Shown here one piece after another: positions 35,574 through 36,049 of a stretch of 64,000 bases of DNA (position 1 is the stretch's first letter; each line of letters begins with the position of its first letter). The stretch comes from Escherichia coli. GTDB taxonomy: Bacteria; Pseudomonadota; Gammaproteobacteria; Enterobacterales; Enterobacteriaceae. Under the pieces are notes generated by a model that was given only the letters and a program-made list of their open reading frames with translations, had not been told where the DNA came from and did not search any database. A program made the translations under genes and the position numbers. The stretch is from assembly GCF_045037415.1 (NCBI RefSeq), contig NZ_CP173439.1. The stretch is one strand, 5' to 3'.

Positions 35574-35921
35574 ATGAAAGCGGATATATCTGTAAAGTAT
35601 TTTCTGAAAAGCCTGATACCAGGTTTCATTATTCTTACAGTTTTTTATCTGGGATGGAAAGATAACCAGGAAAATTCAAGAATGTTTTATGCGTTCATCG
35701 GATGCATTATCAGCTCCATTACTTTTCCTTTTTCAATGAAGATAATACAGAAAATGGTAATAAGGTTTACAGGGAAAGAAGTCTGGCAAAAAGACTTCTT
35801 TACTAATCCAGTTGGCGGAAGCTTAACTGTAATATTTGAATTATTCTGTTTCGTTATATCAGTTCCTGTAGTTGCCATTTACTTAATATTTATATTCTGC
35901 AAAACCCTTTCAGGAAAATGA
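35574..35921 (+). CDS. small integral membrane protein (low GC)
   Basis: 115-aa ORF with three hydrophobic helices; lies about 650 bp upstream of the lasso precursor gene on the same strand. Confidence 0.45.
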   Translation: MKADISVKYFLKSLIPGFIILTVFYLGWKDNQENSRMFYAFIGCIISSITFPFSMKIIQKMVIRFTGKEVWQKDFFTNPVGGSLTVIFELFCFVISVPVVAIYLIFIFCKTLSGK

Positions 35922-35938
35922 AAGGGCATCATTATATG

Positions 35939-36049
35939 TCAGATACCAATAAGTTTATTGTTCTGCTCAATAAACTTATCATTAACAAGCGCACTCACAG
36001 CAGCCATAATAATTGCAAAACCCAGAATACCTACAAGGGTCCCCGGCAT
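35939..36049 (-). CDS. candidate 36-aa hydrophobic peptide
   Basis: Minus-strand ORF MPGTLVGILGFAIIMAAVSALVNDKFIEQNNKLIGI with a single predicted transmembrane helix; below the ORF-track size cutoff, found by manual translation. Confidence 0.25.
   Translation of the reverse strand: MPGTLVGILGFAIIMAAVSALVNDKFIEQNNKLIGI

What the first reader, a model, noticed from the sequence alone, without database searches (positions are those of the whole stretch)
35574..36049. Small membrane proteins next to the lasso cluster: candidate immunity or accessory factors
A 115-aa three-helix membrane protein (35574-35921, same strand, low GC) and a manually found 36-aa single-helix peptide on the opposite strand (35939-36049) lie just upstream of the precursor gene within the same AT-rich island. 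Microcin loci often carry small membrane immunity proteins. Neither has a recognisable family and the 36-aa ORF may not be expressed.
Basis: inference. Interest (0 to 1): 0.3.

Follow-up and report, generated by a model that had tools for sequence, protein, structure and literature searches.

The report
Orphan colicin Ib immunity gene, dead colicin
The two small "membrane proteins" are leftovers of a colicin Ib toxin locus: an intact immunity gene and the tail of a decayed colicin gene. They sit beside the lasso-peptide genes by historical accident, and this arrangement is ordinary and already annotated in public records.

Summary
Both ORFs exist as described, but both belong to recognisable families.

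**The 115-aa ORF (35574-35921, +)** is a colicin Ib-type immunity protein:
- Pfam PF03526 match above its gathering score.
- 91% identical to the immunity gene next to intact colicin Ib.
- Good ribosome-binding site and a conserved promoter-like site.

**The 36-aa ORF (35939-36049, -)** is the last 36 codons of a colicin Ib pseudogene. That gene has lost codons 1-384 and 448-546 and carries a stop and a frameshift.

**How they came to sit beside the lasso genes.** The genes to the left (two hypotheticals, DUF6404, imm) form the usual colicin Ib neighbourhood. The lasso genes join it at one exact breakpoint (36359/36360, colicin codon 385), and every related plasmid aligned shares that breakpoint. 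This points to a single ancestral rearrangement, not a functional pairing.

**Co-occurrence:**
- imm-like DNA is in 427 of 5,426 complete E. coli genomes; the lasso genes are in 26.
- Lasso clusters occur with imm absent, with imm split by an IS3 element, and, in a diverged Salmonella cluster, with no colicin trace at all.
- The lasso cluster carries its own ABC exporter, the usual lasso self-immunity device.

**Most likely function.** This is an orphan immunity gene that protects the host against colicin Ib made by competitors. That step is inferred, not tested. Interest is low.

The parts
35492..35521 (+). Promoter-like site upstream of imm (GTGACA, 18-nt spacer, TATTAT; 10 of 12 consensus matches)
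   Evidence: Consensus scan. The hexamers are conserved in canonical ColIb loci L002 and L004; the window has an 8-bp deletion just downstream of the second hexamer. A consensus match only; no expression data.
35561..35566 (+). Shine-Dalgarno AAGGAG, 7 nt before the imm ATG
   Evidence: Read directly from the sequence; identical in L002 and L004.
35574..35921 (+). imm: colicin Ib-type immunity gene, 115 aa, three hydrophobic segments, intact
   Evidence: PF03526 at 30.3 bits against a cut-off of 25. 105/115 identical to the imm next to intact colicin Ib in L002. Same 90% cluster as that allele. PGAP name 'colicin E1 family microcin immunity protein'; close homologs are named 'colicin 1B immunity protein'. 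Hydropathy.
35949..35979 (.). Perfect 12-bp inverted repeat with a 7-nt loop, 28 nt past the imm stop and inside the colicin tail; possibly a 3'-end hairpin for the convergent transcripts
   Evidence: RNA fold of 35915-36000: -13.8 kcal/mol, z=-2.2. No T-run follows, so a terminator role is only a suggestion.
35939..36049 (-).
   Evidence: PF01024 positions 156-185 of 185, 21.4 bits, below the 23.4 cut-off on its own. Lies inside the tblastn match to colicin Ib 547-626. No Shine-Dalgarno upstream.
35939..36256 (-). Open 105-codon stretch of the cib pseudogene: residues ~422-447 fused in frame to 547-626 (residues 448-546 deleted, 297 bp). PGAP aa of it from an ATC start
   Evidence: Translation. 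tblastn and three-way alignment with colicin Ia and Ib: 40 Ib-only against 7 Ia-only matches, with an Ia-like patch at ~36140-36200. No canonical in-frame start before the ATG at 36049. PGAP CDS.
36267..36359 (-). cib codons 385-415 in a different frame, with Gln408 changed to a stop
   Evidence: tblastn, 90% identity, frame -3, in-frame stop. Relative P0025 has the same stretch without the stop or the frameshift.
36360..36461 (.). Junction filler of unknown origin between cib codon 385 and the lasso module; contains the ATG (36422, minus strand) of the chimeric ORF seen in relatives
   Evidence: Breakpoint at exactly 36359/36360, shared by the window, L004 and L003. Salmonella homology starts at 36462. 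The filler occurs almost only in lasso-bearing plasmids.
34245..35463 (.). Conserved colicin Ib backbone neighbours: hypothetical 89 aa (+), hypothetical 198 aa (+), DUF6404 (-)
   Evidence: Same gene order next to intact colicin Ib in L002 and L008-L017. Window 34526-36139 is collinear with L002 at 94.4%. DUF6404 Pfam E=1.8e-36.
36462..40643 (+). Context only: the lasso module (promoter-like site 36480-36507, precursor 36577-36765, cyclase C 36785/36893-38281, B 38281-38964, ABC exporter D 38964-40688)
   Evidence: Pfam and NCBIfam hits. This extent is shared at 87% with a Salmonella plasmid that has no imm or colicin.

Best explanation
The two ORFs are the remains of a colicin Ib (cib/imm) locus. 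The 115-aa ORF is the colicin Ib-type immunity gene. It is intact and keeps its own promoter-like site and ribosome-binding site. The 36-aa ORF is the last 36 codons of the convergent cib gene, which is dead.

How cib died:
- Its first 384 codons, and with them its promoter, were lost when unrelated DNA carrying the lasso genes was joined at codon 385.
- Later it lost codons 448-546.
- Later still it acquired a nonsense codon and a frameshift.

Likely mechanism (inferred from what is established for immunity proteins of pore-forming colicins; not tested here):
- The three-helix Imm sits in the inner membrane.
- It intercepts the membrane-inserted channel helices of incoming colicin Ib, so the pore cannot open.
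- A host without the toxin is therefore protected from colicin Ib made by neighbouring IncI1-plasmid strains of E. coli, Salmonella or Shigella. This is an orphan 'shield only' gene.

Imm has no role in lasso-peptide production or immunity. Self-immunity to the lasso peptide is most likely provided by the cluster's own ABC exporter (gene D), as McjD does for microcin J25.
For: Shown:
- Family matches: PF03526 above its cut-off for the 115-aa ORF; the C-terminal end of PF01024 for the 36-aa ORF.
- Window 34526-36139 is collinear at 94.4% with an intact colicin locus that has the same gene order: hypothetical, hypothetical, DUF6404, imm, colicin.
- That colicin is Ib. It matches the PDB 8iom 'Colicin Ib' pore domain at 397 bits over residues 433-626 and diverges from colicin Ia (1cii) after residue ~430.
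- The remnant keeps cib residues 385-415, ~422-447 and 547-626, with a stop and a frameshift.
- The 36359/36360 breakpoint is identical in all three lasso-bearing loci aligned.
- A decay series exists. L004 has a 263-aa open chimeric ORF holding cib 385-626. P0025 is 160 aa, with the deletion but still open. The window adds the stop and the frameshift.
- imm has AAGGAG 7 nt before its ATG and conserved promoter-like hexamers. The 36-aa ORF and PGAP's ATC-start 96-aa call have no ribosome-binding site.
- No other colicin I gene lies in the 64-kb window.
- Counts: imm-like DNA in 427 of 5,426 complete E. coli genomes, lasso genes in 26.
- The lasso cluster occurs without imm, with an IS3-split imm, and in Salmonella with no colicin trace. 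imm occurs with the lasso genes deleted.
- The lasso cluster encodes its own 574-aa ABC exporter.

From the literature:
- For ionophoric colicins the immunity gene lies on the opposite strand with its own promoter, and it protects against exogenous colicin (PMC9517006).
- Orphan pore-forming-colicin immunity genes beside heavily truncated toxin genes are widespread on E. coli plasmids (10.1101/2024.11.06.622277).
- McjD provides microcin J25 self-immunity (PMC5641919).
Against: - No expression or protection data exist; function is inferred from homology.
- The window allele differs from the canonical Ib imm at 10 of 115 residues. All changes are conservative, but pairwise dN/dS is 0.72 (11 nonsynonymous, 4 synonymous), which cannot be told apart from neutrality.
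- This allele was never seen next to a living colicin, so its exact specificity is unknown.
- The dead colicin had a short Ia-like patch, so the original partner may not have been canonical Ib.
- imm is lost or disrupted in several lasso plasmids, so it is dispensable at least in some hosts.
- The allele is tightly linked to the lasso genes (9 of 10 distinct contexts). On its own that could be read as functional coupling. I attribute it to descent from a single junction, because the DNA is 99-100% identical across these plasmids.
- The D protein is not close in sequence to McjD: McjD is not among the top 60 PDB hits. Its immunity role rests on position and architecture.
Confidence: 0.85

Rival explanations
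1. The imm gene is a non-functional passenger. It is a relic still intact only because too little time has passed since the colicin died, it is not maintained by selection, and it gives no useful protection.
For: - dN/dS against canonical imm is 0.72, higher than the neighbouring DUF6404 (0.29) and the colicin tail (0.38).
- All lasso-linked copies are 99-100% identical, so they spread recently.
- imm is split by IS3 in CP069461, replaced at its 5' end in CP027324, and absent in four Tn3-truncated plasmids.
- There is an 8-bp deletion downstream of the promoter-like site.
Against: - Over the same history the adjacent 421-bp colicin remnant took a 297-bp deletion, a 12-bp deletion, a nonsense codon and a frameshift. 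The 348-bp imm took only conservative substitutions and kept its start codon, Shine-Dalgarno and promoter hexamers.
- The exact allele is very widespread: the index lists it in 4,455 blocks.
- Published survey evidence suggests orphan immunity genes with conserved truncations are maintained.
Confidence: 0.2
2. One reading: the 115-aa protein, and perhaps the 36-aa peptide, is an accessory or immunity factor for the lasso peptide, recruited from a colicin immunity gene.
For: - It sits immediately upstream on the same strand as the lasso genes.
- The window allele of imm is almost always found with the lasso genes (9 of 10 contexts) and never with a living colicin.
- It has 10 substitutions relative to canonical imm.
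Against: - The adjacency comes from one ancestral breakpoint inside cib.
- The lasso cluster persists with imm deleted or IS-split.
- The 87%-identical Salmonella cluster has no imm.
- imm persists where the lasso genes are deleted (L024).
- imm has its own promoter-like site and is separated from the lasso promoter by a dead convergent gene.
- The cluster has its own ABC exporter.
- From established knowledge: immunity proteins of pore-forming colicins act by binding colicin channel helices in the membrane, a mechanism with no obvious bearing on a lasso peptide.
Confidence: 0.03
3. The colicin remnant (the 36-aa, 96-aa or 105-codon ORF) is expressed as a small membrane peptide with a function of its own, for example modulating Imm or the membrane.
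For: - The frame is open for 105 codons and PGAP calls a 96-aa CDS.
- Relatives carry longer open chimeric ORFs of 160 and 263 aa that start at an ATG in the junction filler.
- The tail is strongly hydrophobic.
Against: - No Shine-Dalgarno before either the ATG at 36049 or the ATC start.
- No minus-strand promoter-like site was found between 35939 and 36700; the only minus-strand hit lies outside the remnant.
- The upstream part is interrupted by a stop and a frameshift in the window.
- The progressive decay series is the signature of a pseudogene.
- Only about 80 of the ~185 pore-domain positions remain.
Confidence: 0.04

Closest known systems
Colicin Ib immunity protein (imm of ColIb/IncI1 plasmids; annotated 'colicin 1B immunity protein'; Pfam PF03526 family)
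   Same: - 115 aa.
- 91% identical (105/115).
- Three hydrophobic segments.
- Convergent with the colicin gene and 17 bp from it.
- Same upstream neighbours (DUF6404 and two hypotheticals).
- Same Shine-Dalgarno and promoter-like hexamers.
   Different: - Ten conservative substitutions (positions 3, 10, 17, 18, 35, 48, 56, 70, 86, 111).
- An 8-bp deletion in the leader region.
- Its toxin partner is dead.
- This allele was never found next to an intact colicin.
Colicin Ib (626 aa; pore domain PDB 8iom) and colicin Ia (PDB 1cii)
   Same: The remnant aligns to residues 385-415, ~422-447 and 547-626. The tail is Ib-type (40 Ib-only against 7 Ia-only identities) and ends ...NKLIGI.
   Different: - Lacks residues 1-384 (the translocation and receptor-binding parts and the promoter) and 448-546 (most of the pore domain).
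- Has a nonsense codon and a frameshift.
- Has a short Ia-like patch (DW.TEFGK).
- It is a pseudogene, not a member able to function.
Orphan colicin immunity genes beside truncated toxin genes on E. coli plasmids (10.1101/2024.11.06.622277)
   Same: An immunity gene for a pore-forming colicin without a working toxin, with the same heavy truncation kept across many different plasmids.
   Different: Here the truncation point is a junction with a lasso-peptide gene cluster. I did not check whether that survey counted this particular locus.
McjD, the ABC exporter that gives self-immunity to the lasso peptide microcin J25 (PMC5641919)
   Same: The cluster here has a 574-aa ABC half-transporter as its last gene, in the same position.
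   Different: It is unrelated to the 115-aa protein. The window's D protein is not close to McjD in sequence, since McjD is not among the top 60 PDB hits, so the role is inferred.
Small membrane immunity peptides of class II microcins
   Same: Small, hydrophobic, encoded next to a bacteriocin gene.
   Different: The only family matched was the colicin E1-type immunity family PF03526. Lasso (class I) microcins are not known to use such peptides; that last point is from my own knowledge.

Membership tests
Colicin E1-type immunity proteins (Pfam PF03526), specifically colicin Ib immunity | Sequence match to the family model above the curated threshold | tested here: met
   PF03526 E=3.6e-7, 30.3 bits against a cut-off of 25. 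NCBIfam has no HMM for it.
Colicin E1-type immunity proteins (Pfam PF03526), specifically colicin Ib immunity | Close identity to an immunity gene that sits next to an intact colicin Ib | tested here: met
   105/115 identical to the imm of L002, whose colicin matches the PDB 8iom 'Colicin Ib' pore domain at 397 bits. Same 90% cluster.
Colicin E1-type immunity proteins (Pfam PF03526), specifically colicin Ib immunity | About 110-115 aa with three membrane-spanning hydrophobic segments | tested here: met
   115 aa; three Kyte-Doolittle segments centred at ~16-21, 44-48 and 86-107. Actual membrane topology was not tested.
Colicin E1-type immunity proteins (Pfam PF03526), specifically colicin Ib immunity | Gene lies just downstream of the colicin gene on the opposite strand, with its own promoter | tested here: met
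   17 bp from the stop of the convergent cib remnant. Promoter-like site 35492-35521 and an AAGGAG Shine-Dalgarno. Layout as described in PMC9517006. Promoter activity was not tested.
Colicin E1-type immunity proteins (Pfam PF03526), specifically colicin Ib immunity | Confers specific protection against colicin Ib | not testable with these tools
   Needs a colicin sensitivity assay with the cloned allele.
Pore-forming colicins (Pfam PF01024; colicin Ia/Ib) | Complete C-terminal pore-forming domain (about 185 profile positions, ten helices) | tested here: not met
   Only Ib residues 547-626 remain of the domain; 448-546 are deleted. The 36-aa ORF matches profile positions 156-185 only, at 21.4 bits against a cut-off of 23.4.
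Pore-forming colicins (Pfam PF01024; colicin Ia/Ib) | N-terminal translocation and central receptor-binding domains | tested here: not met
   No match to colicin Ib residues 1-384 anywhere in the window.
Pore-forming colicins (Pfam PF01024; colicin Ia/Ib) | Uninterrupted reading frame with start codon and translation signals | tested here: not met
   A stop at the codon for Gln408, a frameshift between 36259 and 36267, and no Shine-Dalgarno at either candidate start.
   - Absent from four Tn3-truncated lasso plasmids and from the 87%-identical Salmonella cluster.
- IS3-split in CP069461.
- imm/colicin DNA is in about 2,150 plasmids and imm-like DNA in 427 of 5,426 genomes, against 26 genomes with lasso genes.

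   The module shared with Salmonella starts at 36462. imm is separated from it by a dead convergent gene and a recombination junction at 36359/36360, and it has its own promoter-like site.
   Needs a deletion or expression experiment.

The most novel reading that the evidence does not exclude
The orphan imm allele has ten substitutions, is never found with a living colicin, and descends from a pair whose toxin carried an Ia-like patch. It may have an altered or broadened specificity: protection against an unsampled Ia/Ib-mosaic colicin, or against both Ia and Ib. Selection may maintain it as the defensive half of a composite plasmid module that pairs a lasso-peptide weapon with a colicin I shield. 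This would explain why this one junction has spread so widely (the index lists the allele in 4,455 blocks).
Probability: 0.1. Interest if true: 0.4.

Novelty: already known. Interest (0 to 1): 0.12.

Why it matters
- It removes a false lead. These ORFs should not be counted as parts of the lasso cluster, and the 36-aa ORF should not be treated as a gene.
- It defines the true left boundary of the lasso module. The junction is at 36359/36360, and the core shared with Salmonella starts at 36462. That boundary is useful to anyone cloning or annotating the cluster.
- It adds one well-resolved example of toxin loss with immunity retention, including a three-step decay series. This bears on the current debate over whether orphan immunity genes are maintained for protection.
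- If the allele proved to have changed specificity, it would be a modest addition to what is known about recognition between colicin I and its immunity protein.

Tried and rejected
- **NCBIfam scan of both imm alleles and the remnant:** no hits, so it gives no equivalog-level membership test.
- **Rfam scan of 33000-42500 at E<=0.1:** nothing.
- **Pairwise dN/dS of imm:** too few sites to decide between purifying selection and neutrality.
- **Search for an intact colicin with the window-type tail.**
  - None in PLSDB; the best intact relatives are 95.2% identical at the DNA level and encode the same proteins as L002.
  - None among ten distinct contexts of the exact allele.
  - I ran no further search on this, because 90% clustering would hide a variant tail inside the canonical colicin Ib cluster.
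- **Origin of the 102-bp junction filler (36360-36461):** it contains a GGGGTTCTGAGG... motif that reminded me of a Tn3-family end. BLAST found it almost only in the lasso plasmids themselves. The 'Tn3 family transposase' label on L003 comes from a chimeric ORF, so the origin stays unresolved.
- **Orthology of the D protein to McjD:** not supported by the top PDB sequence hits. I therefore call it McjD-like by role only.
- **Literature searches:** none of these searches turned up a description of this cluster. The core-peptide sequence search found nothing; the pVR50B search returned one unrelated paper (a Campylobacter study) that I did not open; the searches combining lasso peptide with colicin Ib and with E. 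coli BGC surveys returned only reviews and unrelated genome-mining papers, judged from their titles and abstracts. This is not proof that it is undescribed.
- **An early mislabelling that I corrected:** the protein ids P0001 and P0002 were in the opposite order to what I assumed. One search fixed this, and one search repeated the context look-up with the right allele.

Full report
**Observation**

The ORF scan lists a 115-codon ATG ORF at 35574-35921 (+) and a 36-codon ATG ORF at 35939-36049 (-). The first has three hydrophobic segments and the second has one. The stretch is AT-rich: imm is 32.5% GC against 49% for the whole window.

The statement that neither ORF has a recognisable family is wrong. 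The 115-aa protein matches Pfam PF03526 (colicin E1/microcin immunity protein) at 30.3 bits against a cut-off of 25. The 36-aa ORF matches the last 30 positions of PF01024, the colicin pore-forming domain.

**What the DNA is**

On the minus strand, the frame holding the 36-aa ORF is open for 105 codons and reads "...DNWRPFFVKLESLAAGRA...NKLIGI".

About 2,150 plasmids in PLSDB carry similar DNA, but only 18 cover the whole 1.15-kb query. In a plasmid with an intact locus (L002) the gene order is:
- hypothetical
- hypothetical
- DUF6404 (-)
- immunity gene (+)
- a 626-aa colicin (-)

The window has the same order to the left of the finding. Window 34526-36139 is collinear with L002 at 94.4%.

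The L002 colicin is colicin Ib. Its residues 433-626 match the PDB 8iom 'Colicin Ib' chain at 397 bits. Against colicin Ia (1cii) it is near-identical up to about residue 430 and diverges after that.

The window's imm is 105/115 identical to the L002 imm and falls in the same 90% cluster. RefSeq already annotates it as 'colicin E1 family microcin immunity protein' and the remnant as 'colicin-like pore-forming protein'. Close homologs are named 'colicin 1B immunity protein'.

**Anatomy of the dead colicin**

tblastn of colicin Ib against the window and a three-way alignment with Ia and Ib show what survives:
- Residues 385-415, in one frame, with the codon for Gln408 turned into a stop.
- Residues ~422-447, in another frame.
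- Residues 547-626, at 82.5% identity.

Residues 1-384 are missing. Residues 448-546 are missing through an in-frame 297-bp deletion.

The tail is Ib-type: 40 positions match Ib only and 7 match Ia only. A short patch (DW.TEFGK, ~36140-36200) is Ia-like, and colicin Ia plasmids cover that stretch better than Ib plasmids do. The ancestor was therefore a slightly mosaic colicin I.

It has no Shine-Dalgarno, and neither does the ATC start PGAP uses for its 96-aa call. No minus-strand promoter-like site serves the remnant.

By contrast, imm has AAGGAG 7 nt before its ATG and a GTGACA-18-TATTAT site about 50 bp upstream. Both are conserved in canonical ColIb loci, apart from an 8-bp deletion downstream of the second hexamer.

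**How it came to lie beside the lasso genes**

A multiple alignment places the end of colicin homology exactly at 36359/36360, which is codon 385. The breakpoint is identical in three loci:
- the window
- L004, an 'undeleted' relative
- L003, a 'lasso-only' plasmid truncated on its left at 36266 by a Tn3-family element

The juxtaposition therefore arose once.

Relatives give a decay series:
- **L004:** a 263-aa open chimeric ORF made of 21 filler-encoded residues plus cib 385-626, with canonical Ib sequence and canonical imm.
- **P0025:** a 160-aa open ORF that already has the internal deletion.
- **The window:** adds a nonsense codon and a frameshift.

The diverged Salmonella salamae cluster is 87% identical in DNA and its precursor is 92% identical. 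It shares only 36462-40643 and has no imm or colicin trace within 5 kb. That extent defines the lasso module proper.

**Co-occurrence test**

- In 5,426 complete E. coli genomes, imm-like DNA occurs in 427 and the lasso genes in 26.
- Of 23 plasmids with a full lasso cluster, about 16 have an intact imm.
- One has imm split at codon 73 by an IS3 element while its lasso genes are 100% identical.
- One has the 5' end of imm replaced.
- Four lack imm, and so does the Salmonella cluster.
- Conversely, L024 keeps imm and the remnant but has lost the precursor, C and B genes and part of D.
- The exact window allele (P0002) is common and was found with the truncated colicin plus lasso genes in 9 of 10 distinct contexts. 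It was never found with an intact colicin. The canonical allele (P0001) always sits next to an intact 626-aa colicin.
- I read the tight allele-level linkage as descent from the single junction, because the DNA is 99-100% identical. I do not read it as functional coupling.

**Mechanism**

*Shown:* identity, layout, translation signals, decay of the partner gene, and independence from the lasso module.

*From established knowledge:* in ionophoric colicin loci the immunity gene lies on the opposite strand with its own promoter, and it protects against both self-made and exogenous colicin (PMC9517006). These are small inner-membrane proteins that neutralise the inserted channel domain.

*Inferred:* the window's imm is expressed and shields its host from colicin Ib made by competitors, as an orphan immunity gene. 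Such orphans, often beside heavily truncated toxin genes that are conserved across plasmids, have been described across the E. coli plasmidome (10.1101/2024.11.06.622277).

The lasso cluster has its own 574-aa ABC exporter. This is the role McjD plays for microcin J25 (PMC5641919). The window's protein is not a close McjD homolog by sequence.

**Uncertainties**

- Pairwise dN/dS for imm against the canonical allele is 0.72 (11 nonsynonymous, 4 synonymous). This is uninformative.
- imm is dispensable in some plasmids.
- No living colicin with the window-type tail was found, so the exact specificity of this allele is unknown.
- The contrast between an undamaged imm and a neighbour that took two deletions, a stop and a frameshift argues for retention, but it is not statistically strong.

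**Verdict**

This is an ordinary, already annotated feature: an orphan colicin Ib-type immunity gene and the tail of its dead toxin gene, fused by one old rearrangement to a lasso-peptide cluster. The 36-aa ORF is not a gene.

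Noticed in passing
window 36577-40688 (precursor 36577-36765): The lasso cluster looks uncharacterised. The exact 62-aa precursor (MKKQSKEV...GPPFCP) is on at least 1,000 public contigs, and no paper in the searched library contains its core sequence. The cluster is plasmid-borne in 26 of 5,426 complete E. coli genomes, and a Salmonella salamae plasmid has a copy with a 92%-identical precursor. By my own reading (inference), a leader ending ...STN would give a 33-residue core GTGGGSIIE... with a Gly1-Glu9 ring and two tail cysteines, which is unusually long.
   Followed up: partly
window 35078-35174 and 41045-41141: A 97-nt inverted repeat (95% complementary) brackets the whole DUF6404-imm-colicin remnant-lasso block, with 5,870 nt between the arms. 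The right arm is an inverted second copy of the 3' ends of the hypothetical-198 and DUF6404 genes and reads ...NRLPPWDDV* on the + strand. It looks like the scar of an inversion or a recombination between two ColIb-type backbones.
   Followed up: partly
window 40712-40991: A 280-bp element bounded by 40-nt inverted repeats that start GGGGTTGTACGCC... sits right at the end of the lasso module, and L003 homology stops at 40719. It resembles a Tn3-family miniature element, but that is from memory and not tested. Pieces of it also lie about 1.45 kb upstream of the Salmonella cluster.
   Followed up: no
window 40212-40640: About 75 large E. coli and Klebsiella plasmids, many from poultry or APEC strains, carry only this 429-bp 3' fragment of the lasso ABC exporter gene at 99.8-100% identity, annotated 'ATP-binding cassette domain-containing protein'. 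It is a widespread relic of the cluster.
   Followed up: no
L004 1998-2789 (-) (LR890264.1): One relative has an intact 263-aa chimeric ORF: 21 residues encoded by the junction filler fused to colicin Ib residues 385-626. That is a complete pore-forming domain without the translocation and receptor domains, sitting next to a canonical imm. In the same plasmid the lasso precursor is frameshifted at its C-terminus (68 aa).
   Followed up: partly
window 35116-35463 (-) and 34245-35098 (+): A 115-aa DUF6404 membrane protein and two overlapping hypothetical genes (89 and 198 aa, 61% GC) are constant neighbours of the colicin Ib immunity gene in IncI1-type and other plasmids. Their function and any link to colicin biology are unknown.
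   Followed up: no
L018, L026, L027 (contigs carrying the window imm allele): In some plasmids the orphan imm plus lasso block lies about 3 kb from a colicin B/colicin M locus with its immunity genes. Several bacteriocin modules therefore cluster around the same integrase-flanked site.
   Followed up: no
L021, L023, L001 (relatives of window 36785-38964): In several otherwise near-identical plasmids, including pVR50B, the lasso cyclase (C) or B genes are split into two ORFs. The cluster is probably inactivated in part of the population.
   Followed up: no
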